In this document: piece after piece, positions 8,219 to 57,078 of the stretch
Position numbering within the stretch: position 1 is the first letter of the stretch
How the letters are laid out: each line of letters starts with the position of its first letter
Assembly: GCA_016187485.1 (NCBI GenBank)
Contig: JACPJO010000005.1
Span: 71,499 to 135,498, forward strand
Source of the DNA: Candidatus Uhrbacteria bacterium
Lineage (GTDB): Bacteria; Patescibacteriota; Patescibacteriia; UBA9934; UBA10169
Direction of reading: 5' to 3'
DNA length: 64,000 bases
The notes under the pieces: generated by a model
Database searches by the model: none
Told to the model about the DNA's origin: nothing
What the model saw: only the letters and a program-made list of their open reading frames with translations
Position numbers and translations under genes: made by a program

Positions 8219-8255
8219 ACGAAAGAGAGCCCGGAGGCTCTCAAGAGAGAAGGAA
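8216..8255. repeat. Copy 1 of a ~45-nt direct repeat containing a GAGAGCC-N4-GGCTCTC hairpin
   Basis: TAAACGAAAGAGAGCCCGGAGGCTCTCAAGAGAGAAGGA is about 85% identical to the stretch at 9426..9465. The repeat begins with the clpB stop codon TAA. Confidence 0.7.
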
Positions 8256-8270
8256 CGAGTTTGCAGCGAG

Positions 8271-9278: not shown

Positions 9279-9394
9279 GTACGTTCCTCCGTATGTCCGG
9301 TTTTCCCTCCCGTGGATCCAGTATACCCACGTTCAGGACCAGGAAACATAGGGCAATTTTTCAGAAATGTCAATGTTCAGCCCCTCACATGCCC

Positions 9395-9423
9395 AAAAAT
9401 CAGGAGCTTAGCTCCTGATTTTT
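9395..9423. terminator. Perfect 13-bp-stem hairpin AAAAATCAGGAGC-TTA-GCTCCTGATTTTT (bidirectional rho-independent terminator)
   Basis: Read directly from the sequence. It lies between the XDH-family operon and the secreted-protein gene. Confidence 0.7.
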
Positions 9424-9425
9424 GG

Positions 9426-9465
9426 TAAACGAAAGAGAGCCCGGGGGCTCTCGAGGGAGAAAGGA
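9426..9465. repeat. Copy 2 of the ~45-nt hairpin-containing direct repeat
   Basis: TAAACGAAAGAGAGCCCGGGGGCTCTCGAGGGAGAAAGGA sits immediately 3' of the FAD-subunit gene. On the minus strand it reads as a stem-loop followed by TTTCGTTTA. Confidence 0.7.
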
Positions 9466-10458
9466 CTAGTTTTTACGGGCCAGGTCCATGAGGGCACGGC
9501 GGACCTCGACCTCTGCTTTTGTCGCGCGCCACGTTTGGAAGGATAGATCGCCGTGGACGTTGGTCATGGGCTTTGTGGCCCGACCGACCTTTGCCGCGAT
9601 CTCGCACGCGACCTCTTCGGTCATCTCACGTCCCACGGGCAGTTCGAGTACGCGCGGCTGTGGCCGCACCGAGGAGATGACGATATTCACCCGTTCGCAC
9701 ACAGTGCTCTGGAACCATGCTCCGATCGAGAGCGTCATGGTCGAGAAGCTGATGGCGAGACGTGGAGAGACCTTCACGAACGCCCCACGGAACCCTCTGA
9801 CTGGGCGCGGCACGCGAATGTTGCGAATGAACGTTTCGGACGGAAGAGCAAGGTGGCCCGGGAAGAAGCCGCTTGAAGTGAGGGCATCTGCCAGGCGTAC
9901 GTCACGGATCCCCTTGTGTGTGTGGATTTCGAGGCTGGCACCGTAGAGAAGGAGCGGACCCACCGTGTCGCCCGAACGAGCGGCAACGCAGGCTGTCTGG
10001 CTCCCCGTGACGTGGCATGTATTCCCGTCCTTCTTGAGGCAGCCGCCAAGCGCTGCTCGCCACAAGGAATCCTTGTTGTACCAGTCGCAGCGCGTATCCA
10101 GAGCGATGTTGCCGCCGATCGTGCCGGCACTCCTGTGCTGTGGTGCGCCGACCAGCCCTGCGCTCTTCGCGAGCAGAGGAAGTCGGTCAGTTAACCACCA
10201 CTCCACTTCTGCCAGTGTCGTGAGCGCGCCAATGGAAATGAAGGGCTGACGCGGGTCGTCCGTGGTGCCGCGGAAGCCTCGGATTTCCTCGAGACTCACG
10301 AAGGTCGGCGCCTCCCCGTAGAGGCCGTACTTTGCGTTGTAGAGAACGTCGGTGCCGCCCGCCACGAGGATGGATCCCGGATGCTCCTGCCGTATGGCAA
10401 GGAGAGTGGGGATCGACTGGGGCGTAAGACACCGAGTGCCTAACGGAAGCGGGAGCAT
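9466..10458 (-). CDS. FAD-binding subunit of a xanthine dehydrogenase/CO dehydrogenase-family molybdoenzyme (CoxM/XdhB-like)
   Basis: The start is set at the internal Met (MLPLPLGTRCLTPQSIPTLLAIRQEHPGSILVAGGTDVL...), 1 nt downstream of the large-subunit stop. The product matches the FAD-binding domain of molybdopterin dehydrogenases (GGTDVL, AGTIGGNIA). Confidence 0.8.
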   Translation of the reverse strand: MLPLPLGTRCLTPQSIPTLLAIRQEHPGSILVAGGTDVLYNAKYGLYGEAPTFVSLEEIRGFRGTTDDPRQPFISIGALTTLAEVEWWLTDRLPLLAKSAGLVGAPQHRSAGTIGGNIALDTRCDWYNKDSLWRAALGGCLKKDGNTCHVTGSQTACVAARSGDTVGPLLLYGASLEIHTHKGIRDVRLADALTSSGFFPGHLALPSETFIRNIRVPRPVRGFRGAFVKVSPRLAISFSTMTLSIGAWFQSTVCERVNIVISSVRPQPRVLELPVGREMTEEVACEIAAKVGRATKPMTNVHGDLSFQTWRATKAEVEVRRALMDLARKN

Positions 10459-10459
10459 G

Positions 10460-13105
10460 CTACGTCTCTCCCTTCTTGCGGATGGCGGCGAGAACACGTG
10501 CGCCCGTGAAGGGCATGTCGCTTGCCACTGCGCCGCCGGTGGCGTGCAGGATGGCGTTTCCGATGGCGGGCGGCACGGGAAGGAGCGGCCCCTCCCCCGC
10601 TTCCTTTGCCCCATGCGGACTCATGGGGTCGTGGGTTTCGATGATGAACGATTCAACCTCTGGAGCATCGAGTGCCGTAGCGATGCCATGCAGAAGAAGG
10701 TTGGGCTGCTCCAGGAGTCCCCGCGTGCCATATGTCATGCACTCGAAGCGCGCCTCGGAGTCACCCATGGACACGGATCCCTGGATCTGTCCGTGGACGG
10801 CCGAAGGGTTGATGGGCTTTCCACAATCGTGTGCTGCCCAGACGCGCTCGACCCGCACTTCCCCCGTCTCGTTGTCCACGTGCACAAGAGCCACGACGGC
10901 CGTCATGCTATACGTGGGTGAGGCGCCGATGGTGTTGCCGCGGTAGTCGTGCCCATGCGCTTTCACTGGAATGGTGAAGTAGGTGCCTGTGCATGACGGC
11001 GTGCGCGCTCCGCGGTCGAGTTCACGCCGGATTTCACGCGCGGCGTTTACCGCTGCCGTGCCGAGCATGAATGCGCACCGCGAGGAGTAGGCACCGAGGT
11101 CCACTGGACCCAGGGCCGTATCTCCGGTAGTGACGGTGATCCGTTTGCGAGCGATGCCGGTCTCTGCCTCTGCGAGGAGGATCAGCATCATCTCGAGTCC
11201 TTGGCCGATGTCGTTTGCCTGGGTGCAGATGTAGAGCCGTCCGTCCTCCGCCACCGTCATGGTGACGTTAGACTGTGCATCGTCGCGCTGGCCCAAGATG
11301 GCGCCTGCCGTGCCCGAGATGTAGGCGCCCACGGCACAGCCGAGACCAAAGCCGGAGGGAAGCTCGTGGCGATCTTTCCAGCCGCTTGCTTCCTCCACCA
11401 CACGCAGACACTCGAGGATACCAGAACTTGGCACGTGGAAGCCGTTCACCATCTCCTCGCCAGCAGCGATGGCGCCGCGCCGGCGAACCAGGATCGGATC
11501 CAAGCCGAGCTTGGAGGCCGCCATGTCGAGAAGCGTCTCGAAGGCGAACCGCGGTTGGGGTGTGCCGTGCCCTCGCTTGGGACCTTGCGGCGGCTTGTTC
11601 GTGTAGATGCGCCGCGAACGAGCGCGGTAGGCGCCGATCTTGATGGGCGCACCGAGGAGCTGAAGCAGGTAGTAGACCGTGATGGGACCGAACGAGGCGA
11701 AGGCTCCGCCGTCGAGCAGGATGTCTGACTCCACGCCCAGCACTCGACCACCTGCGTCCATGGCAAGACGCATCTGAATGCTCGTGGTGTGTCGTCCACG
11801 GTGGAAGGTGAAGACCTCCTCGCGCGTGTACTGCATCTTTATGGGCCTCTCCGTGACCTGCGCCAGCTTGGCCGCGCACAAGTCGATTTCGGAGATGTCG
11901 GAGTCCCCGCCGAATGCCCCGCCCTTTTTGAGCTGGGTCACGCGGACGTTTTCCTCTGCGACACCCAGCACGTGCGCCAGAGCAACCTGTAGGTAATGAC
12001 TCACCTGTGTGCCAGAGTAGACGTGCAGCTTTTCCCCCGACCAGACAGCGATGACGGCGTGCGTCTCGAGCGCGGCGTGGTTGGAGCCGGGGTACGTGAA
12101 TGTCCCCTCGACGACCACAGCAGCGTCTCGAAACGCCCCCTCCACATCACCGAAGTCCGGCAATTCGACTTCCTTGTACACGTTGTCCGCCCTTGGCGTT
12201 CCCTTGCGAGGATCCACCGCATGGACAAGCGGGGCACCAGCCGCAAGCGCGTCCTTCATGGTAAGCACGGCGGGCAAAGGCTCGTAGCTCACATGGATGG
12301 CCGCGCATGCACGAAGCGCCGTCTGTTCATCCACGGCTGCGACAGCCGCGACGGCCTGGCCCACGTAGAAGACCTCGTGCTGCGCGAGCGCATGCTCGTC
12401 GGCTGCCCAGGGAATGATCCCGTAGGACACCAGCAAGTCCTTGCCCGTGATGACCGCAAAGACGCCTGGCATGGCCTGTGCGTCCTTCGTATCCACCGAC
12501 AGGATCCGCGCGTGCGCATGAGGCGAACGCAGAACCTTGCCTACCAACATGCCGGGCAGGTGGACGTCGTCCGTGTATCCGGCCGATCCATTGGCCCTCT
12601 CCTGCGCGTCGAACTTCACGATCGCATCACCGGGTGCCTCGCGCATTCCTGCGGCAACCTCTACAGCGTCGAAGATGGGGTTGTACCCCGTGCAGCGGCA
12701 GAGGTTTCCCGAAAGCGCGCGCTTGATGGCCGGGCGCGTGGGGCGCGTGTCACGACGCAGAAGCGCCAACCCCGACATCACCATGCCGGGCGTGCACGCG
12801 CCACATTGCGTTCCCTGACACGTACCCATTGCTGTCTGCAGGGCGTGGCCGCGCGGATCGCGGAACGCTCCCTCGATTGTCTCGACCGAATGTCCCTCGG
12901 TCTGGCGAGCCAACGTGAGGCACGACAGCCGCGGCTTGCCGTCTACGAGGACCGTGCACGTTCCGCACGTTCCACTATCGCACCCCTGTTTCGTTCCCGT
13001 CTGCCCCGCCTTGCGAAGGAGCTCGAGGAGCGTACGGGAGTCCGCGACATCTTCGAACGTCGCCTGATCTCCATTTAGCGTGAAGATGAGAGGCCGGTTG
13101 GCCAT
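10460..13105 (-). CDS. Fused [2Fe-2S] ferredoxin plus molybdopterin-binding subunit of an XDH/aldehyde-oxidase/CoxL-family hydroxylase
   Basis: The N-terminus has a plant-type 2Fe-2S site (CDSGTCGTCTV...C) and a second cluster motif (GNLCRCTGY). About 730 aa of Mo-pterin-binding large-subunit sequence follows. The locus is about 65% GC. Confidence 0.85.
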   Translation of the reverse strand: MANRPLIFTLNGDQATFEDVADSRTLLELLRKAGQTGTKQGCDSGTCGTCTVLVDGKPRLSCLTLARQTEGHSVETIEGAFRDPRGHALQTAMGTCQGTQCGACTPGMVMSGLALLRRDTRPTRPAIKRALSGNLCRCTGYNPIFDAVEVAAGMREAPGDAIVKFDAQERANGSAGYTDDVHLPGMLVGKVLRSPHAHARILSVDTKDAQAMPGVFAVITGKDLLVSYGIIPWAADEHALAQHEVFYVGQAVAAVAAVDEQTALRACAAIHVSYEPLPAVLTMKDALAAGAPLVHAVDPRKGTPRADNVYKEVELPDFGDVEGAFRDAAVVVEGTFTYPGSNHAALETHAVIAVWSGEKLHVYSGTQVSHYLQVALAHVLGVAEENVRVTQLKKGGAFGGDSDISEIDLCAAKLAQVTERPIKMQYTREEVFTFHRGRHTTSIQMRLAMDAGGRVLGVESDILLDGGAFASFGPITVYYLLQLLGAPIKIGAYRARSRRIYTNKPPQGPKRGHGTPQPRFAFETLLDMAASKLGLDPILVRRRGAIAAGEEMVNGFHVPSSGILECLRVVEEASGWKDRHELPSGFGLGCAVGAYISGTAGAILGQRDDAQSNVTMTVAEDGRLYICTQANDIGQGLEMMLILLAEAETGIARKRITVTTGDTALGPVDLGAYSSRCAFMLGTAAVNAAREIRRELDRGARTPSCTGTYFTIPVKAHGHDYRGNTIGASPTYSMTAVVALVHVDNETGEVRVERVWAAHDCGKPINPSAVHGQIQGSVSMGDSEARFECMTYGTRGLLEQPNLLLHGIATALDAPEVESFIIETHDPMSPHGAKEAGEGPLLPVPPAIGNAILHATGGAVASDMPFTGARVLAAIRKKGET

Positions 13106-34046: not shown

Positions 34047-35672
34047 CTACAAAACTTGCTCGTTATTGGCAACAGGCAGGGCCTCGGCGGGGCGGAAGCG
34101 ACGGAAAAGATGGCGATGAACGAGGGCACGGAGTTCGCCAAACTCTTCGACATGAAATAGGGAGGAAAGCGAGAGATAGATAGCGGTGCCGATGCTTCCA
34201 ACGACGGCTGTTTGAAGAAAGACGCCGGCAAAAGTGTCCAGGGGCGCGAACCAGACGGTGAGCGGTTTTGAAACTTGCATACCGATGGCCATAAAAAGCC
34301 CTGCGACAGTCATCTTGAGAAGGCTCCGGAGAAGTTTAGATTCATGAATGGCACCAACTTTTACACGCAGCATTGCCCAAAGCAAGATAAGCTCCACCAC
34401 TTGCGCCAGCGAGAAAGCAATACCGAGACCGACAATACCCAGCATCTCTGTAAGGCGGCCGGCGCTCAAAAGGAGTACCAGCGTGGAGAGTGCACCAGCC
34501 ACAAGCGGAGTGACAGAATCACGATAGGCAAAAAATGCGCGGATGAAAAGAAGATTGAGTGCTTGCGCAAAAAGGCTCATAACTAAGAAGGCAAGCGTGT
34601 CAGCGACCAGAAGCGTCTCCTCCCAGCCGAATGTTCCCGCGCCAAGTACGAGACGCACCGTTTGCGCACGCAAGAGCAGAAGGAAGAGCGTGGCAGGAAT
34701 AATGAGATAGAGAATCTGGCGCACCGCTTCAGACATTATATCGGCAAAGCGAGATGTGTCCCCCTCCACTCCCGCACGGCTAAGAAGCGGGAAGGCAGAA
34801 ATGGCAAAACTCACGGCAAGAATGCCGACCGGAAGCGAGGTAAGGTTGTAGGCAAATTGAAAGACCGTCACACTGCCCGCGGCAAGTGCCGAGGCGAGAA
34901 CGCCAAGAATGATGAACTGGATCTGTGACATGCCAATGCCGAGTACACGTGGCCCAAACAAGAGAAGCGCTGAAGACACGTCGGCGTGAAACCACGGTTT
35001 TGGCCAATGAGGGCGATACCCCATTTTCCACGATCCCCACACGGGAATCGCCATATGGAGAAAGGCGCCAAGCACTACACCCCATGCGAGACCAATAGCA
35101 CCCACAGCGGGGACAAAAAACACGGCTCCAAGAATAATACCGATGTTGTAGAGAACGGGGGAAAGCGCAAACAGGGCGAATCGCTGCGTCGCCTGAAGAA
35201 CGTTGCTGAAGACAGAGGAGACGGCGATGAGTCCTTCCGCGAGAAAGAGCACGCGCATAAAGAACGCCACGTGCTGCTGCTTGTCAGACGAAAAACCTGG
35301 TGCAACAAGCTCTGCGAGGAGAGGAGCAAAGAGAATGCCCAGGAGCGCACCGGCGCCGAAAAGTACCCCAAGCCCAATGAGCATGCGATTTGTGAACGCC
35401 CATCCTTCGTCTGCCACTCCATCAGAGCGGAGATGACGGACGAAGAGCGGAATGAAGCTTGCGGAGAGCGCACCCGTGATCAGCAGAGCAAAAAGAAGGT
35501 CGGGAATGCGAAATGCCGCATAGTAAACATCGAGCGTATCTCCGGCCCCGAATGTCCCTGCCAGGACACGATCGCGCCATAGTCCAAATAGACGACTTAC
35601 AAAGGAAAAAAAACCTAGAACAAGCGCTCCACCAGCCAAACTTTCTATAGGCTTTTGGAACCAACTAAGCAT
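34047..35672 (-). CDS. murJ: Lipid II flippase MurJ/MviN
   Basis: The translation has LGLWRDRVLAGTFGAGDTLDVYYAAFRIPDLLF and 14 TM helices. Confidence 0.85.
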   Translation of the reverse strand: MLSWFQKPIESLAGGALVLGFFSFVSRLFGLWRDRVLAGTFGAGDTLDVYYAAFRIPDLLFALLITGALSASFIPLFVRHLRSDGVADEGWAFTNRMLIGLGVLFGAGALLGILFAPLLAELVAPGFSSDKQQHVAFFMRVLFLAEGLIAVSSVFSNVLQATQRFALFALSPVLYNIGIILGAVFFVPAVGAIGLAWGVVLGAFLHMAIPVWGSWKMGYRPHWPKPWFHADVSSALLLFGPRVLGIGMSQIQFIILGVLASALAAGSVTVFQFAYNLTSLPVGILAVSFAISAFPLLSRAGVEGDTSRFADIMSEAVRQILYLIIPATLFLLLLRAQTVRLVLGAGTFGWEETLLVADTLAFLVMSLFAQALNLLFIRAFFAYRDSVTPLVAGALSTLVLLLSAGRLTEMLGIVGLGIAFSLAQVVELILLWAMLRVKVGAIHESKLLRSLLKMTVAGLFMAIGMQVSKPLTVWFAPLDTFAGVFLQTAVVGSIGTAIYLSLSSLFHVEEFGELRALVHRHLFRRFRPAEALPVANNEQVL

Positions 35673-36903
35673 GCGGTGGCTCTATCTTCTTACGTGGCCG
35701 TTTTGACGCAGGGGCCACTCCCGTACTCGTGGGCGCACTCCGATACGCAGCCACAAGTCCCAACACAATAGCAAGACCAAGAACAATCAACAGCATGCGT
35801 ACGGTGCCGTTCTCTAAGTCGAAGAATGGTACGAAAATCTCCACTTGGTCTTCTACAACGTCACCCTCGGGCGACGTCATCTTCAGCGTGACAAGATACT
35901 CTCCTGACTCAGCATATGTGTGTACAACTTCGCGTCGGCGTGACGTTGTATCGTCTCCAAAATCCCAATTGTATGCATATCCTTCGTCGCGGCTTGGGGC
36001 AACGGCGTAGAAGTTGTACGTAGACCAGCGCACCTGTTCAAAGGAAAACTTTGTATCCTGTGACGATCCGCGGGTTGCTTCAGATTCCTCTTGAGCAGTC
36101 GTCTCGTCACTCTCTTCTGCCAAAGATGCCTCCGTGTCTCCCGTGACTTCTACCGCCTGCTCCTCTCCTGGTGCAGGAGGAGATGACAGAGCGGGAGCCG
36201 CGTCCGCGCTCGTGGGCGGCGTGGTTGTCGTTGTCTTTGCGGGAGATTGTGCTGGCGCGGGAGGTACAGGAGCAGGCTTTGGGGCCGGTGGCGGTTCCCC
36301 AAGCGGCGTTGTGTCAACCGCGTCGGATTTTCCATCGTCGTCGGTATCGACATCACGCGGGTCGGTTCCCTTCATGGCCTCCTGTTCGTTGGAAAGTCCG
36401 TCGCCGTCAATATCCGCGTCGCAAGCATCTCCATCCGTATCTGTGTCCATGTTTTTTTGGTCTGCATTCGTTGCTGCCGGGCAGTTATCATTTTGATCCA
36501 GCACCCCGTCACGGTCTTTGTCCGGAACGGGAGTCGCAAGCGCCGTGATGACGACATTATCATTCTTGTTCGTGTCCGGCGGATCTACGTTCGTCACCTC
36601 CACGCGGACATTAAACGTCCCCTCCGGAATAAGAAGATCCACAAACACCTCCTCCTTCACGCCACCGGCACGAAGCGAGATCACCTGCGGAGTTCCGCTG
36701 ATCGCCGTCCCGATATAAAAACTCACATCCCCCGTGACATCCACATCGCCGGTGTTTCTCAGTGTCGCATAGACACGCACGGTGTCCCCCACGTACAGAA
36801 TGTCTTTTGAAAAAGTCACCTCCGGGAGGATCTGCACTTCCGCCGCGGCGTGCGCAAAAAAAGGAAAGGCAAGAAACAGGACGGTAAGAACGGGTATGCG
36901 CAT
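35665..36903 (-). CDS. Cell-surface protein with thrombospondin type-3 calcium-binding repeats, a PKD domain and a C-terminal TM anchor
   Basis: The product has a signal peptide and an N-terminal Ig-like region with a Gly-Asp-Val motif. Repeated DxDxDGxxD motifs (DTDGDACDADIDGDG, DVDTDDDGKSD) follow, then WDFGDD (PKD) and a C-terminal hydrophobic helix with a basic tail. Confidence 0.65.
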   Translation of the reverse strand: MRIPVLTVLFLAFPFFAHAAAEVQILPEVTFSKDILYVGDTVRVYATLRNTGDVDVTGDVSFYIGTAISGTPQVISLRAGGVKEEVFVDLLIPEGTFNVRVEVTNVDPPDTNKNDNVVITALATPVPDKDRDGVLDQNDNCPAATNADQKNMDTDTDGDACDADIDGDGLSNEQEAMKGTDPRDVDTDDDGKSDAVDTTPLGEPPPAPKPAPVPPAPAQSPAKTTTTTPPTSADAAPALSSPPAPGEEQAVEVTGDTEASLAEESDETTAQEESEATRGSSQDTKFSFEQVRWSTYNFYAVAPSRDEGYAYNWDFGDDTTSRRREVVHTYAESGEYLVTLKMTSPEGDVVEDQVEIFVPFFDLENGTVRMLLIVLGLAIVLGLVAAYRSAPTSTGVAPASKRPRKKIEPPHA

Positions 36904-48088: not shown

Positions 48089-49771
48089 CTAGTACTGCTC
48101 CTCGAGACGAAGAACTTTCTTGAACACGCCGCCGGGAGCCACACTCACGGCAAGGGAATGGTCGTGCGTCGTGCACACAGCACAACGCAGGGTAAGCAGG
48201 TAGTCGCCGGAGGGAACCTCGATCTCGAGCGGCGTGCGGCCGATCACGCGGTCGCCGAGCACGACATCCGCCGGCGGGCTCGTGTAGAGATCGAGCGTTG
48301 CGGGAAGTGCCTCTGGAAGTGCGGGAGACACACTCTCAGTGGGATTCTTGATGGCCGGCATCTCTTCTGTCCGTGCCGTTCGAGCAGGCATGAACGCTGC
48401 GGGCGAAGGAGGATCCGGCTCCACCATGATGGACGGAAGCCCAGCCGCTGAAGAAGTCGGCGCTACGACAGCCGTGAGGCGAGCACCTCCCACCGGCTCT
48501 TCCGTCTCCGACGTGGGCAGCACGGCACCGACCATGAGCACAAGCGCAAGAGCTGCCGCGAAGACAACCAACTCGAACCTCCGAGAGGACGGTTCCTTCC
48601 AGAGCAGCGGGGAATGGACCTCGTTGACCGTGACTGTCCTGGGCTCCTCAAGCACCGCCGGGCGTGCGCGCTGGCGGAGACCACGGTCGGAAGGCGGAGC
48701 AGGGACATCCCACTCGTCCACCTCTTCGGGTGCGGGGGGCGACGCTCCAATCGGTGCCACGAACATCGTATGGATCTCTTCCGTCGAGTCTTCCACGGGC
48801 TCCGGCGGCTTCTCCCCCGAGAAGAAGCCGTTGGGCCGCTCGGGCGGGAGGAGAAGCATCAGGCTTGCCCACCACGTCGTATGCACGAGTTCGTTGTCCG
48901 TAAACTGCAGGAGCTCGCGCAGATCGAGCAGGAGCTCTTCGGCTGATTGATAGCGAGCCGAGGAGTCACGCTGCCAGAGCCGTTCGAGGATGGCACCAGC
49001 CATGGGATGGATGGAGTGAATCTCCGCCACCTTGCCCGCCATGTCGTCCTTGATGACCGACATGAGCGTGCGCAGCGAGTCGTCTTCGTCGAACGCCCGG
49101 TTGAGCGAGAGGAGCTCGTAGAAGATGCTTCCCATGGCGAAGAGGTCCGAACGCGCGTCCAGGTCCTCGCCCTTCACCTGCTCGGGCGACATGTACGAGG
49201 GCGTACCCTTCGTCGTGCCGTCGCGAGTGAGGGTGAGGCGCTGGGTGTGGCGCGCGATGCCGAAGTCGGTGATGCGCACCGCACCCGTGCGGTCTACCAG
49301 GAGGTTGGCGGGCTTCAGGTCGCGGTGCACAAGACCGAGCGGCTGTCCGTCACGGTCCGCGAGCGTATGGAGATAGGCGAGTCCTTCGCAGATCTCAATG
49401 GCAACGCGCAGCGCCGAGGCCAGCGACACCGTAAGTTGCGTGTCGCGGCAGATGTCCACCAGCCGATCAAGGGGCCACCCGTCCACGTACTCCATTGCCA
49501 GGTAGAAATGGTCATCGCGGACAACACCGAAGTCGTACACGGTTACCACGTTCTTGTGCGCAAACAGCGCTCCGACGCGCGCCTCATCCGAGAGCGCACG
49601 GAGCTGATCCGGATCCGCAGCTTGACGAAGGAGCTTGAGCGCCACCGTCCGCCGGAACCCCATCGAACCACCGTGCTCTGCACGGTAGACAGCGCCAGAA
49701 GCGCCGCGGCCGAGCAGAGCCGAGATGTTGTAGGGCCCAAAAGGAATGGGCGCAAACGGCTTCGTCGTCAC
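48089..49771 (-). CDS. Ser/Thr protein kinase with a Pro-rich linker, a TM helix and an extracytoplasmic PEGA-like domain (high GC)
   Basis: The translation has GRGASGAVY...ALK and HRDLKPANLLV motifs and a single TM (LVVFAAALALVLMVGAVL). The C-terminal LYTSPPADVVLGDRVIGRTPLEIEVPSGDYLLTL is a PEGA pattern. The gene is about 65% GC. Confidence 0.8.
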   Translation of the reverse strand: MTTKPFAPIPFGPYNISALLGRGASGAVYRAEHGGSMGFRRTVALKLLRQAADPDQLRALSDEARVGALFAHKNVVTVYDFGVVRDDHFYLAMEYVDGWPLDRLVDICRDTQLTVSLASALRVAIEICEGLAYLHTLADRDGQPLGLVHRDLKPANLLVDRTGAVRITDFGIARHTQRLTLTRDGTTKGTPSYMSPEQVKGEDLDARSDLFAMGSIFYELLSLNRAFDEDDSLRTLMSVIKDDMAGKVAEIHSIHPMAGAILERLWQRDSSARYQSAEELLLDLRELLQFTDNELVHTTWWASLMLLLPPERPNGFFSGEKPPEPVEDSTEEIHTMFVAPIGASPPAPEEVDEWDVPAPPSDRGLRQRARPAVLEEPRTVTVNEVHSPLLWKEPSSRRFELVVFAAALALVLMVGAVLPTSETEEPVGGARLTAVVAPTSSAAGLPSIMVEPDPPSPAAFMPARTARTEEMPAIKNPTESVSPALPEALPATLDLYTSPPADVVLGDRVIGRTPLEIEVPSGDYLLTLRCAVCTTHDHSLAVSVAPGGVFKKVLRLEEQY

Positions 49772-49829: not shown

Positions 49830-51338
49830 TCAAGAAATCTCTGTACCGCCGAACTCTTCCAATAGGTCTCCGACGATTTCATCCGCTTTCCCGTGGACAT
49901 ACTCTCCACGCACACGAATCGGGACGGAGAAAATGCGCGCGAGCACAGATTCAAGTTTCTCACGATTACGCGGCGCATTTACCGTGTCCGCGTGAAATTT
50001 GAAATGGAACCCCATCGTGAGCGTGTCCCCCTCCATAGCAAGAGGCTCTGCTGATTTAAGTAAAAACCCAAGCGAGGCATGCGCTTCGGTGACTTTCGCG
50101 AAAATATCATTCCACCCCTGCTGAATTTTTGAAAACTCTACAACCGGAGACTCGTCTTTTTTCCCCGGTGTTTGCACGGGAAGTCCCTCCTCTACCTGTG
50201 GTGGAGGGGCAGAACCCTCTTCCACAGACGTGCTTCGTTCCCCTGATGCAGGAGTAAAAGGAGTAGCAGCTTTTACCACGGCAATCTCCAGGGGGAGAGA
50301 AGGAATGGAACTTTCCTCTGAAACGGCGGAGGAAAAAAGATTGATCATTTCCGTCCACTGCACGGGAGAACAGGTGTGTGCAAGAGCGCGTACGGTGGGA
50401 AGCAGATGCTGAGGCCAAGCAAGAGCAAGAGCGGACTCGTCTCCAAGACACGCAAGCATAAGATGGCGAGCGTAGGAAACTATTTCCTCTGCAAGACGAG
50501 AAGGGTCTCCTCCACTTTCTACAAAACGATGTAGGTGTCCCATCGCTTCCTTCGTTTGTGCATTCACGATGAAAGAAAGAAGGGCAAGAGCTTCTTCCAG
50601 ATAGCGACGTGGCAGAACAAGAGCGGCCTCCTCCATATGGATAACTCCATCACCGACAGCCAAAACCTGCGCCAGAAGACTCTCCGCATCACGCTGGCTT
50701 CCCTCCGACAGACGTGCGATCTCTTCTATCACGGCTCGGTCCACTTTTACTTTCTCCTTTTTGCAGAGCTCTTCCAAGCGCAGAGCAAGTTCGGCCAGAG
50801 GAATACGATGAAAATCAAACCGCTGCGTGCGTGAAATAATCGTCTCGGGAAGTTTATGCACCTCGGTTGTGGCAAGAATAAACAGCGCGTGAGTAGGCGG
50901 TTCTTCCAGCGTCTTTAAAAGTGCATTGAAGGCGCTTGTCGAAAGCATGTGTACTTCATCGATGATGAACACCTTGTACGGAGCGGCGTGCGGGGTGAAG
51001 CGAATCGCTTCGATGATGTGTTCGCGCACATGGTCCACCCCTGTGTGGCTTGCGGCATCCATCTCCACAACGTCAAGACTCCGCCCCTCTGTGATCTGCG
51101 TGCAAGAATCACATGCATTGCACGGTTCGCCCTGCTTTGAACGTTTGGCGCAGTTTACGGCTTTCGCAAGCAGTCGAGCCGTCGTCGTCTTTCCCACCCC
51201 CCGTGGTCCCGTAAACAAATACGCGTGTCCCACCGTGCCGCATGCCAACTGGTGGAGAAGCGTTGTGGAAATATGCGGCTGGCCGATCAGCGCAGAAAAG
51301 GTTTGCGGGCGGTATTTTCGGTAGAGGGTTTCAGACAT
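49830..51338 (-). CDS. dnaX: DNA polymerase III subunit gamma/tau
   Basis: The translation has GPRGVGKTT and the Zn module CNACDSC. Confidence 0.9.
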   Translation of the reverse strand: MSETLYRKYRPQTFSALIGQPHISTTLLHQLACGTVGHAYLFTGPRGVGKTTTARLLAKAVNCAKRSKQGEPCNACDSCTQITEGRSLDVVEMDAASHTGVDHVREHIIEAIRFTPHAAPYKVFIIDEVHMLSTSAFNALLKTLEEPPTHALFILATTEVHKLPETIISRTQRFDFHRIPLAELALRLEELCKKEKVKVDRAVIEEIARLSEGSQRDAESLLAQVLAVGDGVIHMEEAALVLPRRYLEEALALLSFIVNAQTKEAMGHLHRFVESGGDPSRLAEEIVSYARHLMLACLGDESALALAWPQHLLPTVRALAHTCSPVQWTEMINLFSSAVSEESSIPSLPLEIAVVKAATPFTPASGERSTSVEEGSAPPPQVEEGLPVQTPGKKDESPVVEFSKIQQGWNDIFAKVTEAHASLGFLLKSAEPLAMEGDTLTMGFHFKFHADTVNAPRNREKLESVLARIFSVPIRVRGEYVHGKADEIVGDLLEEFGGTEIS

Positions 51339-51373
51339 AGCCGCGCCATTGTAGCACGCTCTCTTCCCTCCTC

Positions 51374-52009
51374 CTACCCCTTTGCCTGGCGGATAACATT
51401 CTCCACTGCCGCCCAGGTACTTGGCGTATTTTTTGGCACTAAAACAATAATCTGATCGCCTTCCTGGCCCTTAAAAAACGTCACGCTCGCGGTGAGAACC
51501 TTCCAGACATGCTCGTGAGATTCATCAATAGCAACGTATCCGTTCGCCGACGCATCCCATGCCAGAGATGCTTGTAAACGTCGCCGCTCGATAGGTCCTA
51601 CTTGTTTGTACAAAAACGTTCCGTCCGCACGAATAGTGAGTTTCAATATATCGCCCTCCACGAGACGCGATTTAGACGCGTAGTTCGGCGGCACAACATA
51701 GCTTTGTCCATCCGAGCCGATCATCTGTTCCCCATCAAAAACACCTTCGACAACTTTTTCCGCTTGTAGACGCGCAAGCTCTGGCGTGTGCGCCGACTGC
51801 TTTGCAAGAAGCTCTACAAGAATTTGTCGCCCCTGCGCTTCGGTCCCAGACTCAAGAAGATCAATGGCATTTTGCATGGCCTCCTTTGCGTGGCGAAGAA
51901 TACGCAAAACCAATTCGGTGCGCGCACCTTCGCCCGCGCGGACAGGCTCCTCGCCAAACCCCGGCTCTGGCTCAAAAGACGTTTCCTCTTGATCTGTCAT
52001 GTGGGACAT
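51374..52009 (-). CDS. Acidic protein of unknown function
   Basis: A 211-aa ORF sitting 4 nt upstream of the VirD4-like gene fragment. Confidence 0.5.
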   Translation of the reverse strand: MSHMTDQEETSFEPEPGFGEEPVRAGEGARTELVLRILRHAKEAMQNAIDLLESGTEAQGRQILVELLAKQSAHTPELARLQAEKVVEGVFDGEQMIGSDGQSYVVPPNYASKSRLVEGDILKLTIRADGTFLYKQVGPIERRRLQASLAWDASANGYVAIDESHEHVWKVLTASVTFFKGQEGDQIIVLVPKNTPSTWAAVENVIRQAKG

Positions 52010-52012
52010 ACG

Positions 52013-54467
52013 CTAGAATTCCCCAACCGGCACTGGTTGTGCCTCCCCCACGCCTCCAAGCGCAGAGCGCTCAAGTATCTCTTCTTCCACGAGTACACGT
52101 TCACGGCCGTACTTCAACCGAGAAAGTTCTTTGATGGCAGCGGCAAGCTCAGGGTTCCCCTTGGGTGGCAGGACCGTGTGAAGGGTAAACGGTTTCTGCG
52201 CATCGTTATCAATAATCATTTTGGAGTACCACGTAAATTTCTCGGCATTAATAAGATCGTAGCCGGAGAAAAGGGGCGCAAATTCTTTTTCCAGTACCTC
52301 TGCATCTTCTACGCCGATGCGCGAAACAAACATCGTTCCCACGTTTCCGAGCACCGCGTCCCGTACTTCCGTTTTGTTGTCCTTAACCAACTGCCCCATA
52401 TATTGGTGCGCCATAATGAGGTCCAGACGATATTTACGCGCCTCAGAAAGGATGGTAGCGATCGAGTCCGTAATAAAGTTTTGGAACTCGTCAATATAGA
52501 GATAGAAATCCTTGCGCTGTTCCTCGGGCATATCGGCGCGCGCCAGCGCCGCCATTTGAAGCTTCGCGACGATGATGAGACCCAAAAGCGAAGCGTTCAC
52601 TTCGCCCGTCTTCCCTTTGGAAAGATTCACAATGAGGATCTTGCTCTGATCCATGATCTCGCGAATGGAGAACCCTGAATGCGACTGGCCAATGATGTTA
52701 CGTATCATGGTGTTTTCCACAAATCGTCCGACTTTGGAGATCAGATAGCCGAGCATCTCAGACTTGTGGAAGTCACTCGTTTTCGCCATCTCTTTTTCCC
52801 AGAACGCACGCACAACCGGGTCTTTCACCTTTGCGACCCATTGTTTTTGGTATGCTTCGTCACTGAACATGCGCGGGATCTCCGCCACCGTGCCCGGATT
52901 TCCCAGATCCGACATGAGCGTCAGCATCACATTACGCATGTTGTGCTCAAACATGGGACCGATCATCTCTGGCGGGAACAACTTGTAAAAGATCGCAATC
53001 ATTTCTTGCACGGCAAAGTCCACTTGTGATTCACTCTCGGCCTCAAGCATATTAAGTCCCACCGGCCGATCCAGGTCTGACGGGTCAAAGACGACAACGT
53101 CATCCACGCGCTCTTTAGGAATGTTCCCAAGCACCTGCTCAGCGAGATCTCCGTGTGGATCAATCACGCACAGGCCATGCAGTCTTGATGAAGACGGGTT
53201 TCGTCCCCCCGCGGTAGATGTTGTTGCCAAGAAACAATCCTTCGATCGGCGTATTTATCGGCGCCGGAGCGCGGCGCGCGCGAAGCCAATAAATATTCGG
53301 GGTGTCGGTCCACGGAAGTGGCGGGTGCCAAAGGGATGCCATCTCTTGCGTATTGAAGACAACTCTCTGCCCACCCTCCCAATCGCGGAAGATGAACTTA
53401 CGAATCACGCGCTTCTTTGAATGCGGGATTGCCCGTTCAAATTTATTGCCGTATTCATAAATGTTGAATTGAGAAAAAGCGTTCACTGTGTTTTGGAGAA
53501 TTGCTTCTGCGCGCGCTCCTGCCGCCGCGCTTACGACGATACGGATATTCACCTCCATACCGGATTTAGACGCTTTTTCCTCGATACGCTTCACCGTCTC
53601 CTCTTCCTGCGGAGACAAGCGGTGTTCGTCACGCGTAGATTGACGCTTCTGTACTTCTTCTTTCGTGCGAAGGTCATCAAGAAGCCCGCGTTCATTCTTC
53701 TTTTTTCCCGCCAGCGCCTCTGCAAGCGACATGCCTGACTGTATGCGCCGCGCGATGGCTAATCCCTCATCACGCCATGAAGGCTTCGCCGTGCGCACGA
53801 TGTATTGAACGGCAGTTCCTTCCCCCTCCTCTATCTTCGAGAAGGTATTGGTGATGGCGCTCATCGGATCAGACTCGATGTCCTTGTACGTGCGGATAGG
53901 AAAACCGACAGGGCGTGCAAACTGTAAATAGGCGCCAAGAATCACGCCGGTGGGGGTAAATAAGTTGTAATCCTCTGTCTCCTCGATGTGCGCATCAGGA
54001 TACTGCGCCAAGATTTGCTGCTCAATAAGTTCTGCAAAACGCACAGGCGCCGCAATGTAGAATTTAATAAGCTTCTGATGGCAGACAATCTCAAAGGAAA
54101 AGTGATCGTCGCGTCCAAAAAGCCACGCAAAAAAACCATGCTGATGTTTGATGCCTCCGATGGAGGCAAACAAACTCTCCGCCACGGCTATCGCCTCGTT
54201 TTTTTGTTCCTTCGTTACCTGCTTGGATGTTTCTTCTTCCGAACGAAACTTTGGTACCGCTAACAAAAATAATTTCATGGCATACTGCCCCTGGCGCCGA
54301 TGTCCCACAAAGATCATGAACGCGCGAAAAGCAAAGAGAACGAGGATGGTCGCAAGAACAAGGCCCCAAAACCAAAACACGGCGGCCACTAACCACGACG
54401 CGCCTCCGGCAGGAACGGATGAAGCAAAATTCTCTTCAGTGAACGTTGTTGCGGCGAGCAAGCTCAT
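52013..54467 (-). pseudogene. VirD4/TraG/TraD-like type IV coupling protein gene, split into two overlapping ORFs at a G6 homopolymer and lacking a Walker A motif
   Basis: ORF 53160..54467 encodes an N-terminal TM segment plus about 400 aa. ORF 52013..53230 begins with a TTG start and carries VIDPHGDL, YIDEFQNF and HQYMGQL, which are family hallmarks. The frame switch lies within TACCGCGGGGGGACGAAA at about 53187..53204. No GxxGxGK[ST] occurs in any frame. Confidence 0.6.
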
Positions 54468-54933
54468 GGATTTTGTCTGTTTTTATTTTTGCCTCCTGTT
54501 CGAGAAAAAATTTGTTCACGCCGGGAATCATCTGCAACCACCCGCGAATCATCCCAATTACTTTGCGCAAGGAAAGTTTTGCTCCTGCCATCATAACGCG
54601 GAGTCTCCCCGCTACTTCTTCTCCTTTCGCGCGAAAAACCTTTTGTGTCTCCGGGTCCATGTGTCCGTAAACCTCGCCTAAGTCCTCCTCTAGAACTCCC
54701 TCGATCGCTTCCGAGAGAGGATCCTTCGCGGGCGCAGCCGTAGCAACAGATTCCGCCGGGGCGGGAAGGGAGACGGGTGCTGCAGGTTCGGCGCCCTCAT
54801 GTAACGGAGAGGGCGTCTCCACAGGCGCCGGCGACGCAACTTCATGATCCTCCGCACGCTGCTCAACCGGTGCGTCAACATCAACCCGCGGCTGCTCTGG
54901 TGATGCCTCGTTCTTCCTCAGTAATTCAGCCAT
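54436..54933 (-). CDS. Acidic Pro/Ala-rich protein of unknown function
   Basis: A 165-aa ORF immediately upstream of the VirD4-like gene on the same strand. Confidence 0.45.
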   Translation of the reverse strand: MAELLRKNEASPEQPRVDVDAPVEQRAEDHEVASPAPVETPSPLHEGAEPAAPVSLPAPAESVATAAPAKDPLSEAIEGVLEEDLGEVYGHMDPETQKVFRAKGEEVAGRLRVMMAGAKLSLRKVIGMIRGWLQMIPGVNKFFLEQEAKIKTDKIHELARRNNVH

Positions 54934-54989
54934 ACGGGAATAGTATAGCAGATAAATATTTTCCTAGCCGATTCGTTAGCACCCAACCA

Positions 54990-55018
54990 TTGACAGAACA
55001 GCTAAAATGTGGTACTTT
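54990..55018 (+). promoter_or_regulatory. Candidate sigma-70 promoter (TTGACA-17 nt-TACTTT) for the high-GC orphan gene
   Basis: Read from the sequence. An AAGGAG RBS precedes the ATG at 55071. Confidence 0.35.
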
Positions 55019-55070
55019 CGCCATAGTTTCGCACCTCTAACACCACACCCAGGCCGAAGGAGAGCTACCC

Positions 55071-55499
55071 ATGACTGCGAACACGTACCCTGACTGGAGG
55101 TCACCCACATCGGATCTGGCAAAGCTCGCTCTCATCAAGAGGGAGTGGGGCGCACAGATCGACAACACCTACCTCTGGTACGAGATCGGGCCCATCACTC
55201 GGCTCACCAACGAGGAGGTCGCCACCATCGTGAAGCAGTGCTTCGTTCACCACACCGTCGGCTTCGGCGACGTGGAGATCCACCCGTCCATGCTCATCCA
55301 GGGAGCAATGTTGCTGCGCCTGCGCGGCACCCTCTTCCTCCAGCCCGCCCTCACGATTCGCAACCGTTACTGCCCGCTCTACCAGGTGGGCCACGGGGGC
55401 GGATTCGTCACGACGGCGGACGACGATTGCGTCAACTTCCACCGCGTGTGGGAACTGGACGCGAAGGAGACCGAGGTGGGGCCCATCGTCCTGCACTGA
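55071..55499 (+). CDS. High-GC orphan protein of unknown function
   Basis: A 142-aa ORF with a good RBS in a patch of about 65% GC. A Gly/Arg-rich shadow ORF lies on the opposite strand. Confidence 0.55.
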   Translation: MTANTYPDWRSPTSDLAKLALIKREWGAQIDNTYLWYEIGPITRLTNEEVATIVKQCFVHHTVGFGDVEIHPSMLIQGAMLLRLRGTLFLQPALTIRNRYCPLYQVGHGGGFVTTADDDCVNFHRVWELDAKETEVGPIVLH

Positions 55500-55634
55500 C
55501 GAGGCCACGAGGCCAAGGGGTGTGGTGATGTGGTTCCCGATCATCGGGCTGACATCTCCCTCTGGGACAGCCGACAAGCTGTCCCAACCCCTTCTTTTGT
55601 ACACCAAATCATGTTGTTCAGAAGAAGTGGTGAA

Positions 55635-55689: not shown

Positions 55690-57078
55690 TTAGTCCCCCT
55701 TTTGCACTTTTGTCCCTGTGGGAGTATCCACGACATCAAACCCGTGCGAGGCAATCTCCTCGCGCAGGCGGTCGGATTCTTTCCAGTCCTTTTGCGCCCG
55801 CGACGCATCTCGCGCCTGCACAAGTTGCTGAACCGCTTGGGAAATTTCCAATGGTTTGCCCAAAGTTTGCGAAAGATGAAGACCAAGCACCTCGTCGAAT
55901 TTCAACAGAGTCCGCGCCCGTGCCCTCGTCGGCATTGTTCCATCATCAACCAGCTTCCACAAAACTGAAAGGGCCTGCGGGGTATTAAGATCGTCATTGA
56001 GCGCCGCCATAAACTCCTCCTCATATCCTGCGCAACCGGCAACACCCGGCGCATCCCAGTCCCGCAATGTCTCGCGCAAACGCCGAAGCGTTGCATCCGC
56101 TGCCAAAAGCGACTCGAAAGTAAAATTCAGTTTATGCCGATAATGAGTGCCATGTGCAAGAAGACGGTAGGACGTCGGGTCGAATCCCTTCTTTGCAAGA
56201 TCATCCAGCGTATAGAGATTTCCAAGCGACTTCCCCATCCTCCCTCCGTCCACCGTAAGAAATTCGCTATGCATCCACACGCGTGCTTGCGGCACCCCAT
56301 AGGCCCCTTTTGTTTGCGCGATCTCGTTCTCGTGGTGGACAGGGATATGATCCACGCCACCGGTGTGAATATCGAATGTGTGTCCTAAATATTTGGTAGA
56401 CATGGCTGAACATTCAATGTGCCAGCCTGGAAACCCTACACCCCACGGAGATTCCCACTCCATTTGTCGCGTGGATCCTTTTGGAGAAAACTTCCACAAG
56501 GCGAAATCCGTTGCGTGGCGTTTTTGCGTGTTAATGGCGACTCGTGCGCCCTCTTCCTTCTCTTCGAGCGGCTGACCACTCAACTCCCCATAGCTTGGGA
56601 GCTTTGCTGTATCGAAATACACGCCATCGTCTATGCGATACGTATATCCGTTCTTCTCGAGTGTCTGGATCATCTCGATCTGTTCGGCGATATGATCTGT
56701 TGCCTTTACAAGTTTGGAAGGGGCTAAAATACCGAGCCGTTCCGTGTCGCGCAGAAATGCCTCCGTATAAAATGCGGCGACCTCCCACGCGGTCTTCCCT
56801 TCACGTTTTGCTCCCACCTCCAGCTTATCCTCTCCTTCATCGCCGTCGGAAACGAGGTGACCGACATCGGTGATATTCATCACGTGATCAACATCTAAAC
56901 CATTCGCCATGAGCACGCGTTTGAGAATATCAGCAAAAAGGTACGCGCGAAGATTGCCGATGTGCGCATACCAGTACACTGTAGGACCGCATGTATAGAG
57001 GCCGACATGGCCCTGGCGGATGGGTTCAAAGGGCTCTTTCTTGCGCGTAAGTGTGTTGAACAACGTAAGAGTACTCAT
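55690..57078 (-). CDS. cysS: Cysteinyl-tRNA synthetase
   Basis: The translation has [12 protein letters not shown] and KMGKSLGN. Confidence 0.9.

What the first reader, a model, noticed from the sequence alone, without database searches (positions are those of the whole stretch)
51374..54933. Decayed type IV coupling protein (VirD4/TraG-like) module with a homopolymer frame break and no P-loop
Two overlapping ORFs together encode a VirD4/TraG/TraD-type protein. It has N-terminal TM helices, an IDPxGD motif, a DEF Walker B and an HQxxxQL motif. The reading frame switches inside a G6 run (about 53190-53200), and no Walker A exists in any frame, even after a one-base correction. Uncharacterised acidic proteins flank it (51374-52009 and 54436-54933), and a high-GC orphan gene follows. 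This could be a relic of a conjugative or DNA-uptake element, or a repurposed non-ATPase scaffold. Either way it is unusual.
Basis: partly seen in the sequence, partly recalled or inferred. Interest (0 to 1): 0.6.

Follow-up and report, generated by a model that had tools for sequence, protein, structure and literature searches.

The report
Coupling-protein gene broken by assembly error
The gene looks broken and lacks its ATP-binding loop only in this assembly: 95 bases are missing here, while nine independent assemblies of the same Uhrbacteria population carry an intact, ordinary VirD4-like gene that sits in a conserved housekeeping neighbourhood.

Summary
The two overlapping minus-strand ORFs (53160-54467 and 52013-53230) are real, and no Walker A exists in any frame. 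The cause is not a slip in the G6 run (53205-53210). Exactly 95 nt are missing between 53181 and 53180. Those bases encode PDRQRHMYIIGRSGSGKSQFIANMAIQDVQAG, the whole P-loop segment.

Per-run assemblies from nine SRA runs carry the same locus. Their 11.8 kb of flanking sequence is 100% identical to the window, but the gene is one intact 849-aa ORF with a canonical P-loop. Next to the gap the window has 15 differences within 97 nt. All are third-codon-position and synonymous.

This pattern points to a local chimeric mis-join at a strain-variable site in the deposited MAG (about 0.7). A rare recombinant deletion allele is the main alternative (about 0.2).

The gene belongs to the known Patescibacteria VirD4-type T4CP homologues (TM helix, DUF8128, TrwB-like ATPase). 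It lies in a conserved cassette, cysS / ~165-aa protein / T4CP-like / ~210-aa tandem-OB protein / dnaX, seen in 84 related loci. It is therefore not a relic of a mobile element. Interest is low.

The parts
54436..54933 (-). Upstream cassette gene, 165 aa (NCBI HYW18_03405). It has a Pro/Ala-rich disordered N-terminus and a helical C-terminal half. Its 3' end overlaps the T4CP-like start by 32 nt.
   Evidence: 1499 homologues, with a 100% match to HYW18_03405; a homologue lies directly upstream of the T4CP-like gene in 80 of 84 loci. No Pfam or NCBIfam family.
53181..54467 (-). 5' part of the T4CP-like gene, codons 1-429: TM helix (54303-54395) plus the DUF8128 N-domain, ending ...YRGGTKPVFIKT.
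   Evidence: tblastn of P0001 aa 2-431 maps to 54467-53184. This stretch is 100% identical to the Logan contigs up to 53181. DUF8128 (PF26449) is precomputed for the intact 849-aa product.
53180..53181 (-). Junction where 95 nt are missing relative to the population allele. The missing bases, CCTGACCG...CAGGCCGG, encode PDRQRHMYIIGRSGSGKSQFIANMAIQDVQAG, which includes the Walker A P-loop. The join is blunt, with no microhomology.
   Evidence: L085 3735-3829 is absent from the window. (30-33 residues missing relative to all homologues).
53160..53180 (-). Out-of-frame tail of the first ORF (AWPVRD, then stop), created by the 95-nt gap.
53063..53159 (-). Divergent patch of 15 differences from the population allele. 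All are third-codon-position and synonymous (13 transitions, 2 transversions). It is flanked by 6753 nt and 5063 nt of 100% identity.
52013..53180 (-). 3' part of the T4CP-like gene: TrwB-like ATPase domain without its P-loop. It contains IDPHGD (53147-53164), Walker B DEF (52475-52504) and HQxxxQL (52388-52411). NCBI calls it MBI2485164.1, 384 aa, from a GTG at 53167.
53205..53210 (-). G6 run (C6 on the + strand). It is not the site of the frame break.
   Evidence: One search gives the position. One search shows the same run in the intact allele L085, read through in frame.
51374..52009 (-). Downstream cassette gene, 211 aa (NCBI HYW18_03390): acidic tail, helical hairpin and two tandem OB-like beta-barrels (aa 83-206, 51392-51763). 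It starts 3 nt after the T4CP-like stop.
   Evidence: 2334 homologues; present downstream in 52 of 84 loci. AF2 model with pLDDT 85. Foldseek hits to RNase R cold-shock domains, the Mpa coiled-coil plus double-OB region, and IF1.
49830..51338 (-). dnaX, the synteny anchor downstream of the cassette.
   Evidence: dnaX lies downstream in 63 of 84 loci.
55690..57078 (-). cysS, the synteny anchor upstream of the cassette.
   Evidence: found in 65 of 84 loci, on the upstream side in all, on the opposite strand in five.
55071..55499 (+). 142-aa gene on the opposite strand with locally high GC (0.60-0.66); HYW18_03410. It belongs to a small unnamed protein family and is not part of the conserved cassette.
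   Evidence: It is absent from this position in L002 and L004.

Best explanation
The locus is the ordinary chromosomal copy of the Patescibacteria VirD4-type coupling-protein homologue. The protein has an N-terminal membrane helix, a DUF8128 domain and a TrwB-like FtsK/HerA-superfamily ATPase. It is the middle gene of a tight three-gene cassette: a ~165-aa helical protein, the T4CP-like ATPase, and a ~210-aa tandem-OB protein. The cassette lies between cysS and dnaX.

In the natural population the gene is one intact 849-aa ORF with a canonical P-loop (GRSGSGKS). In the deposited MAG contig that this window comes from, 95 nt carrying the P-loop are missing, and the next ~118 nt come from a different, synonymously diverged allele.

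The most likely cause (inferred) is a local mis-join. At a strain-variable site the assembler or scaffolder abutted the shared upstream contig to a 5'-truncated contig of a variant allele, without inserting Ns. That created a false frameshift and two false CDSs, MBI2485165.1 and MBI2485164.1.

The intact protein would act (inferred from fold and family) as a membrane-anchored hexameric NTP-driven translocase, probably with the OB-fold partner. It does not appear to depend on a conjugative VirB4/relaxase system.
For: Shown:
- Contigs from nine independent SRA-run assemblies (SRR12113433, 419, 425, 401, 383, 426, 432, 428, 385) span the site. All carry the identical intact allele.
- The 849-aa product is on 10 Logan contigs. 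The 435-aa and 384-aa split products are each on only one contig, the 303,146-nt NCBI contig.
- The window is 100% identical to these contigs over 6753 nt upstream and 5063 nt downstream. It differs only by the 95-nt gap and 15 substitutions within 97 nt next to it, all third-position and synonymous. Random error cannot produce this pattern, so the patch is real sequence from another functional allele.
- The junction is blunt, with no microhomology to the intact allele.
- In run SRR12113428 the contigs break inside this patch, which is compatible with strain variation there.
- 80 of 80 related loci scored have a single ORF with a Walker A, and none of the 20 closest homologues lacks the segment.

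From the literature:
- Local assembly errors are common in uncurated MAGs, notably with IDBA-UD. Thirteen were found in one 1.13-Mb CPR genome (PMC7111523).
- A large groundwater CPR study that deposited similarly named Uhrbacteria MAGs used MEGAHIT plus IDBA-UD scaffolding (PMC7906910).

Family assignment. Synteny.
Against: - No reads were available, so the junction has not been shown to lack read support.
- I could not verify that the MAG's own source run is among the nine runs. I also could not verify that the MAG or the runs belong to the study whose pipeline I cite.
- The donor of the 118-nt patch was not found. The best of 84 loci is only 73.5% identical, and no protein above 71% identity other than the same species appears.
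- A genuine minority allele could in principle be assembled in a single sample.
- Abutting contigs without Ns is not the documented default behaviour of a scaffolder, so the exact artefact mechanism is conjecture.
Confidence: 0.72

Rival explanations
1. A real deletion allele. A strain in the population acquired a short tract of diverged DNA from a close relative. One end joined by homologous recombination (near 53062) and the other by illegitimate joining (at 53180/53181). This deleted 95 nt and recently inactivated the T4CP-like gene, as in homology-facilitated illegitimate recombination in naturally transformable bacteria.
For: The diverged tract lies on one side of the deletion only, and identity returns to 100% at its far end. 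That is the geometry expected for one-sided homology plus an illegitimate join (mechanism as described in PMC3240628). Both gene halves are otherwise undamaged, which fits a very recent event. The paper reports that the T4CP homologue of Ca. Southlakia epibionticum was not essential for epibiotic growth, so loss could be tolerated. The contig break in SRR12113428 hints that a second allele exists.
Against: No independent assembly shows the deletion: 0 of 9 runs, and the split products are on one contig only. There is no microhomology at the junction. The gene is intact in 80 of 80 related loci scored.
Confidence: 0.2
2. A homopolymer (G6) slip, from sequencing error or phase variation, splits an otherwise complete gene.
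For: The G6 run lies within the 71-nt overlap of the two ORFs.
Against: Homology to intact proteins continues in the first frame for nine codons past the G6. The intact allele has the same G6. The difference from the intact allele is a 95-nt block, not one base. No one-base correction yields a Walker A.
Confidence: 0.01
3. A decaying relic of a conjugative or DNA-uptake element, or a P-loop-less protein kept as a non-catalytic scaffold.
For: The window copy has no Walker A. No partner VirB4 or relaxase gene is nearby.
Against: The gene sits in a housekeeping neighbourhood conserved across at least four candidate phyla-level lineages of Patescibacteria. GC content is not anomalous. The same population encodes the intact ATPase. 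The missing segment forms the core beta1/P-loop/alpha1 of the fold, and the frame is also shifted, so the fused protein cannot be made.
Confidence: 0.03

Closest known systems
Patescibacteria VirD4-type T4CP homologues (Microb Genom 2025, PMC12102498)
   Same: The domain matches are the same (T4SS-DNA_transf, TrwB_AAD_bind, TraG-D_C) and so is the taxon. As in that survey, the gene is encoded far from any virB4 or relaxase. The survey found 5,713 homologues in 2,918 genomes, only 148 of them near virB4, and raised possible exaptation.
   Different: Nothing essential differs once the intact allele is considered. This report adds the conserved neighbours (the ~165-aa protein, the tandem-OB ~210-aa protein, cysS and dnaX) and the DUF8128 N-domain for this Uhrbacteria/Magasanikbacteria-type subgroup.
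TrwB of plasmid R388 (PDB 1e9r, 1e9s, 1gki), the prototype T4CP
   Same: It is the only PDB hit by sequence, and the match falls on the P-loop to DPxGD stretch. The ATPase half of the modelled homologue superposes with TM 0.61-0.64 (normalised to TrwB), rmsd 5.3-6 A, 16-17% identity. Both have an N-terminal membrane anchor, Walker A and B, and an all-alpha insertion between them.
   Different: This protein has an extra ~370-aa DUF8128 domain between the TM helix and the ATPase. There is no relaxase, oriT or mating-pair-formation genes in the neighbourhood. It is a chromosomal core gene rather than plasmid-borne.
VirB4/TrwK (PDB 7o42, 8rtd)
   Same: It gives the best Foldseek E-values for the full-length model (1.6e-13), with about 920 aligned columns. 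That suggests a similar two-part layout of N-domain plus C-terminal ATPase.
   Different: Global TM is only 0.27-0.31 and rmsd 15-17 A. No VirB4-family Pfam or NCBIfam model matches. The N-domain resemblance was not tested on its own.
Cagbeta/VirD4 (8dol), DotL (6sz9) and HerA (4d2i)
   Same: They share the FtsK/HerA-superfamily RecA-like hexameric translocase fold, with TM 0.53-0.55 normalised to the target. There is also a weak DUF87 (HerA central domain) Pfam match in intact homologues.
   Different: These are more distant than TrwB. HerA has no membrane anchor and works with the NurA nuclease.
Local assembly errors in MAGs (Chen et al. 2020, PMC7111523)
   Same: A short stretch of consensus is unsupported elsewhere and corrupts a protein-coding gene in an uncurated MAG.
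   Different: Here the error, if it is one, carries a recognisable signature: a 5'-truncated variant allele abutted to the shared contig. Read-level proof is missing.

Membership tests
VirD4/TraG/TrwB-type type IV coupling protein (T4CP) | Match to T4CP profile HMMs above the curated cut-offs | tested here: met
   Window C-terminal ORF: PF02534 35.0 bits (cut-off 20.1), PF12696 26.7 (22), PF10412 23.9 (20.5). Intact homologues P0001 and P0010 also pass.
VirD4/TraG/TrwB-type type IV coupling protein (T4CP) | Walker A P-loop (GxxGxGK[ST]) | tested here: not met
   Absent from the window in all frames. Present as GRSGSGKS in the population allele, L085 and eight other runs, and in 80 of 80 related loci scored.
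VirD4/TraG/TrwB-type type IV coupling protein (T4CP) | Walker B (hhhhDE) and the conserved C-terminal HQ motif | tested here: met
   YLYIDEFQNF at 52475-52504 and AHQYMGQL at 52388-52411. Both are invariant in the 90-sequence alignment.
VirD4/TraG/TrwB-type type IV coupling protein (T4CP) | N-terminal transmembrane anchor | tested here: met
   Hydrophobic stretch at aa 25-55. It forms a single long helix, H24-55, in the model of the homologue.
VirD4/TraG/TrwB-type type IV coupling protein (T4CP) | Nucleotide-binding domain with an inserted all-alpha domain; TrwB-like fold | tested here: met
   Tested on the model of homologue P0001 (71% identical). Eight helices at aa 514-627 lie between the Walker A and Walker B strands. 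TrwB superposes with TM 0.61-0.64. The window protein itself was not modelled.
VirD4/TraG/TrwB-type type IV coupling protein (T4CP) | Genetic association with a relaxase and/or VirB4 mating-pair-formation genes | tested here: not met
   None appears among the 20 large ORFs of the window that were scanned. The neighbours in 84 loci are cysS, dnaX and two small conserved proteins. The rest of the genome was not available.
VirD4/TraG/TrwB-type type IV coupling protein (T4CP) | Match to a named NCBIfam conjugative T4CP equivalog (TraD F-type, SXT TraD, CD1115, MobC) | tested here: not met
   The best is CD1115 at 24.3 bits against a cut-off of 250. All others are far below their cut-offs.
DUF8128-containing T4CP-like proteins of Patescibacteria | DUF8128 (PF26449) N-domain followed by a T4CP ATPase in one ~850-aa protein | tested here: met
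   The precomputed Pfam annotation for the intact 849-aa product of this species lists PF26449, as it does for all 120 listed homologues. The local Pfam copy gave no DUF8128 hit for the window N-terminal ORF, so this rests on the precomputed annotation.
DUF8128-containing T4CP-like proteins of Patescibacteria | Conserved cassette: ~165-aa protein upstream, ~210-aa protein downstream, next to dnaX | tested here: met
   Of 84 loci, the upstream homologue is present in 80, the downstream homologue in 52 and dnaX in 63.
Genuine pseudogene (real genomic lesion) | The lesion is reproduced in independent data from the same organism | tested here: not met
   0 of 9 independent run assemblies carry it. 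The split products are on record from one contig only. Reads were not available.
VirB4-type T4SS ATPase | VirB4-family HMM match and VirB4-like N-domain | tested here: inconclusive
   No VirB4-family HMM hit. Foldseek gives its best E-value to TrwK/VirB4, but TM is only about 0.3. A domain-level comparison was not possible.

The most novel reading that the evidence does not exclude
The 95-nt deletion and the adjoining 118-nt synonymously diverged tract are one genuine event. A fragment of DNA from a close relative was integrated with homology at one end and an illegitimate join at the other. This knocked out the P-loop of the T4CP-like gene in a sub-population. It would be a natural footprint of transformation-type recombination inactivating a conserved core gene in an uncultivated CPR bacterium.
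Probability: 0.18. Interest if true: 0.35.

Novelty: already known. Interest (0 to 1): 0.12.

Why it matters
The main value is as a correction. Two public protein records are probably fragments of one ordinary 849-aa protein: MBI2485165.1 ('hypothetical', 435 aa) and MBI2485164.1 ('type IV secretory system conjugative DNA transfer family protein', 384 aa). The apparent P-loop-less T4CP should not be taken as biology without read support.

There is also a side result. The intact gene is part of a very widely conserved cassette next to dnaX in Uhrbacteria-type Patescibacteria: a small helical protein, the DUF8128-T4CP ATPase, and a tandem-OB protein. No VirB4 or relaxase is nearby. This fits the published suggestion that these T4CP homologues have been exapted. 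It also names two candidate partner proteins that could be tested.

Tried and rejected
- **G6 slip or phase variation:** rejected.
- **Second, intact paralogue in the window:** none. tblastn of P0001 finds only this locus.
- **Same organism in JGI metagenome contigs:** a degenerate 80-nt pattern covering DPHGD...FDP gave 0 hits.
- **Same species in the GTDB representative genomes:** absent, best 60% identity.
- **Exact look-up of the 435-aa product among encoding contigs:** returned nothing, although the cluster table later showed it on one NCBI contig. The two indexes disagree.
- **Donor of the divergent patch:** none of the 84 fetched loci is close. The best is 73.5% nt identity, against 87% between the two alleles.
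- **Repeats or microhomology that could explain the 95-nt loss:** none at the junction, and only chance 10-mers of the 95-nt block occur elsewhere in the window.
- **Linking the SRR12113xxx runs or the MAG to He et al. 2021:** the run numbers were not found in that paper's supplements, so the link stays an inference.
- **PDB by sequence:** only TrwB, at E = 0.006.
- **NCBIfam:** nothing near the cut-offs.
Full report
**What is in the window**

Four genes lie head to tail on the minus strand between cysS (55690-57078) and dnaX (49830-51338):
- a 165-aa ORF (54436-54933);
- a 435-aa ORF (53160-54467);
- a 405-aa ORF (52013-53230, from a TTG);
- a 211-aa ORF (51374-52009).

The 405-aa ORF passes the Pfam gathering cut-offs for T4SS-DNA_transf, TraG-D_C and TrwB_AAD_bind. 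NCBIfam's named conjugative T4CP families are far below their cut-offs. No Walker A exists in any frame of 51000-55500 apart from dnaX.

**Where the frame really breaks**

A fusion of the two ORFs finds more than 2000 homologues. The listed ones are mostly single proteins of about 850 aa, mainly from Candidatus Uhrbacteria and other Patescibacteria. The best is 71% identical.

Aligned with the 20 closest, the window lacks about 30 residues between ...VFIKT and HGLCVIDPHGDL.... In the homologues that segment reads (P)DRQRHMYIIGKSGSGKSxFxxxMAIQDIxxG, which is the whole P-loop region. tblastn places P0001 aa 2-431 on 54467-53184 and aa 465-852 on 53179-52019.

The G6 run is at 53205-53210 and encodes R-G-G. 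Homology continues in frame for nine more codons after it. The homopolymer explanation is therefore wrong.

**Independent assemblies of the same organism**

The two flanking proteins are 100% identical to NCBI HYW18_03390 and HYW18_03405, from a Candidatus Uhrbacteria MAG contig of 303,146 nt. They also occur on 13-15 contigs, most of them Logan per-run assemblies.

Contigs from nine runs span the site: SRR12113433, 419, 425, 401, 383, 426, 432, 428 and 385. All nine carry the same allele, a single 849-aa ORF reading ...VFIKTPDRQRHMYIIGRSGSGKSQFIANMAIQDVQAGHGLCVIDPHGDL....

Compared with these contigs, the window shows the following:
- 100% identity over 6753 nt upstream, ending at 53181;
- exactly 95 nt missing;
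- 15 substitutions between 53159 and 53063;
- 100% identity again over 5063 nt.

All 15 substitutions are at third codon positions and synonymous (13 transitions, 2 transversions), so the encoded peptide is unchanged.

The intact product is on 10 Logan contigs. The split products, MBI2485165.1 (435 aa) and MBI2485164.1 (384 aa, 'type IV secretory system conjugative DNA transfer family protein'), are each on record from the NCBI contig alone.

**Interpretation of the lesion**

Fifteen purely synonymous changes packed into 97 nt, inside 11.8 kb of otherwise perfect identity, cannot be sequencing noise. They are real sequence from another functional allele. That sequence is joined at its 5' end to a non-homologous position of the main allele, by a blunt junction without microhomology.

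Two processes could produce this geometry.

The first, which I favour at about 0.7, is a local assembly or scaffolding error at a strain-variable site. The shared upstream contig ends where the alleles diverge, and it was abutted to a 5'-truncated contig of the variant allele. Support for this:
- The deletion is absent from every independent assembly.
- In run SRR12113428 the contigs break inside this patch.
- Such errors are documented as frequent in uncurated MAGs. Thirteen were found in one 1.13-Mb CPR genome, and IDBA-UD was singled out (PMC7111523).
- A large groundwater CPR study that deposited similarly named MAGs used MEGAHIT followed by IDBA-UD scaffolding (PMC7906910).

I could not verify that this MAG or these runs belong to that study.

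The second, at about 0.2, is a genuine recombinant allele formed by homology at one end and an illegitimate join at the other, as described for naturally transformable bacteria (PMC3240628). It would be carried by a strain that happened to be assembled once. Only reads can decide between the two.

**What the gene is**

Every listed homologue carries DUF8128 (PF26449) followed by the T4CP ATPase domains, and so does the intact product of this species.

An AlphaFold model of P0001 (pLDDT 85.6) shows these parts in order:
- one long N-terminal helix;
- a mixed alpha/beta N-domain;
- a RecA-like domain with an eight-helix insertion between Walker A and Walker B.

The ATPase half superposes on TrwB with TM 0.61-0.64, and less well on Cagbeta, DotL and HerA. 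The best full-length E-values go to TrwK/VirB4, but TM is only about 0.3. By sequence, TrwB is the only PDB match, and the match falls exactly on the P-loop to DPxGD stretch. The piece missing from the window is therefore beta1/P-loop/alpha1 of the catalytic core.

**Context**

In 84 fetched loci from Uhrbacteria, Magasanikbacteria, Falkowbacteria, Kuenenbacteria and unnamed Patescibacteria, the following are present:

| Feature | Loci (of 84) |
|---|---|
| ~165-aa homologue upstream | 80 |
| ~210-aa homologue downstream | 52 |
| dnaX | 63 |
| cysS | 65 |

All 80 loci that could be scored have a single ORF with a Walker A.

The 20 large ORFs scanned in the window hold housekeeping, cell-envelope and metabolic genes and no VirB4, VirB6 or relaxase. 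This matches the published survey of Patescibacteria: 5,713 VirD4-type homologues in 2,918 genomes, only 148 near virB4, and a suggestion of exaptation (PMC12102498). The locus is a core chromosomal cassette, not a relic of a mobile element.

**The flanking proteins**

- The 211-aa protein (2334 homologues) models with pLDDT 85 as an acidic tail, a helical hairpin and two tandem five-stranded barrels with OB topology. The nearest solved folds are the RNase R cold-shock domains, the coiled-coil plus double-OB region of the Mpa ATPase, and IF1. Scores are modest.
- The 165-aa protein (1499 homologues) has a disordered Pro/Ala-rich N-terminus and a helical C-terminal half. It matches no family.
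- The overlaps and 3-nt spacing indicate one operon.

I infer, without a direct test, that the intact system is a membrane-anchored hexameric NTP-driven translocase working with an OB-fold substrate-binding or ring-forming partner.

**Verdict**

- The gene family and this very protein are already in public data. The anomaly is most likely an assembly artefact.
- Interest is low, at 0.12.

Noticed in passing
window 8000-13100: This block has GC 0.60-0.65, against about 0.53 elsewhere. It holds an 881-aa fused xanthine dehydrogenase/aldehyde oxidase-type molybdoenzyme (10460-13105, minus strand) with 2Fe-2S, hammerhead and two MoCo-binding domains. This is unusual content for a small CPR genome and may be a horizontally acquired island.
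   Followed up: partly
window 55071-55499 (+): A 142-aa gene on the opposite strand, HYW18_03410, sits in a local GC peak (0.60-0.66). It has no Pfam or NCBIfam family, but it has 68 homologues of 93-1751 aa (most 110-240 aa) in the representative library, all unnamed. It is absent from this position in distant relatives, so it looks like an insertion between cysS and the cassette.
   Followed up: partly
L001 2691-5426: In the closest relative (71% identical T4CP-like protein), two extra genes of 287 and 622 aa occupy the same cysS/cassette gap that holds the 142-aa gene in the window. Neither has a Pfam match. This intergenic slot seems to be a hotspot for variable cargo.
   Followed up: no
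L096 end and L088 start (run SRR12113428); window about 53062-53080: In this one run the contigs break inside the 15-variant patch. L096 ends at the position equivalent to L085 3932, and L088 starts at window 53062, one base past the last variant site. This may mean a second allele coexists in that sample.
   Followed up: partly
window 51374-52009 homologues (P0153, P0240): Some public records name homologues of the 211-aa tandem-OB protein '50S ribosomal protein L7/L12'. The predicted fold (helical hairpin plus two OB barrels) does not support that name, so it looks like a propagated mis-annotation.
   Followed up: partly
P0001 model (homologue of window 52013-54467): The best full-length Foldseek E-values are to TrwK/VirB4 rather than to T4CPs, with about 920 aligned columns but TM about 0.3. 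The DUF8128 N-domain might therefore resemble the VirB4 N-domain. This was not tested at domain level.
   Followed up: no
window 48089-49771 (-): A 560-aa Ser/Thr protein kinase with raised GC (0.61-0.63) lies directly downstream of dnaX. The same arrangement occurs in L001 but in none of the other 83 related loci.
   Followed up: no
window 35665-36903 (-): A 412-aa secreted-looking protein has PKD, thrombospondin type 3 and CARDB domains and lies next to murJ. It could be a cell-surface adhesin of this episymbiont-type bacterium.
   Followed up: no
The exact-product look-up reported the 435-aa ORF as not on record, but the cluster table lists it as MBI2485165.1 on the 303-kb NCBI contig. The two indexes are not equivalent, so a negative exact look-up should be read with care.
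   Followed up: yes
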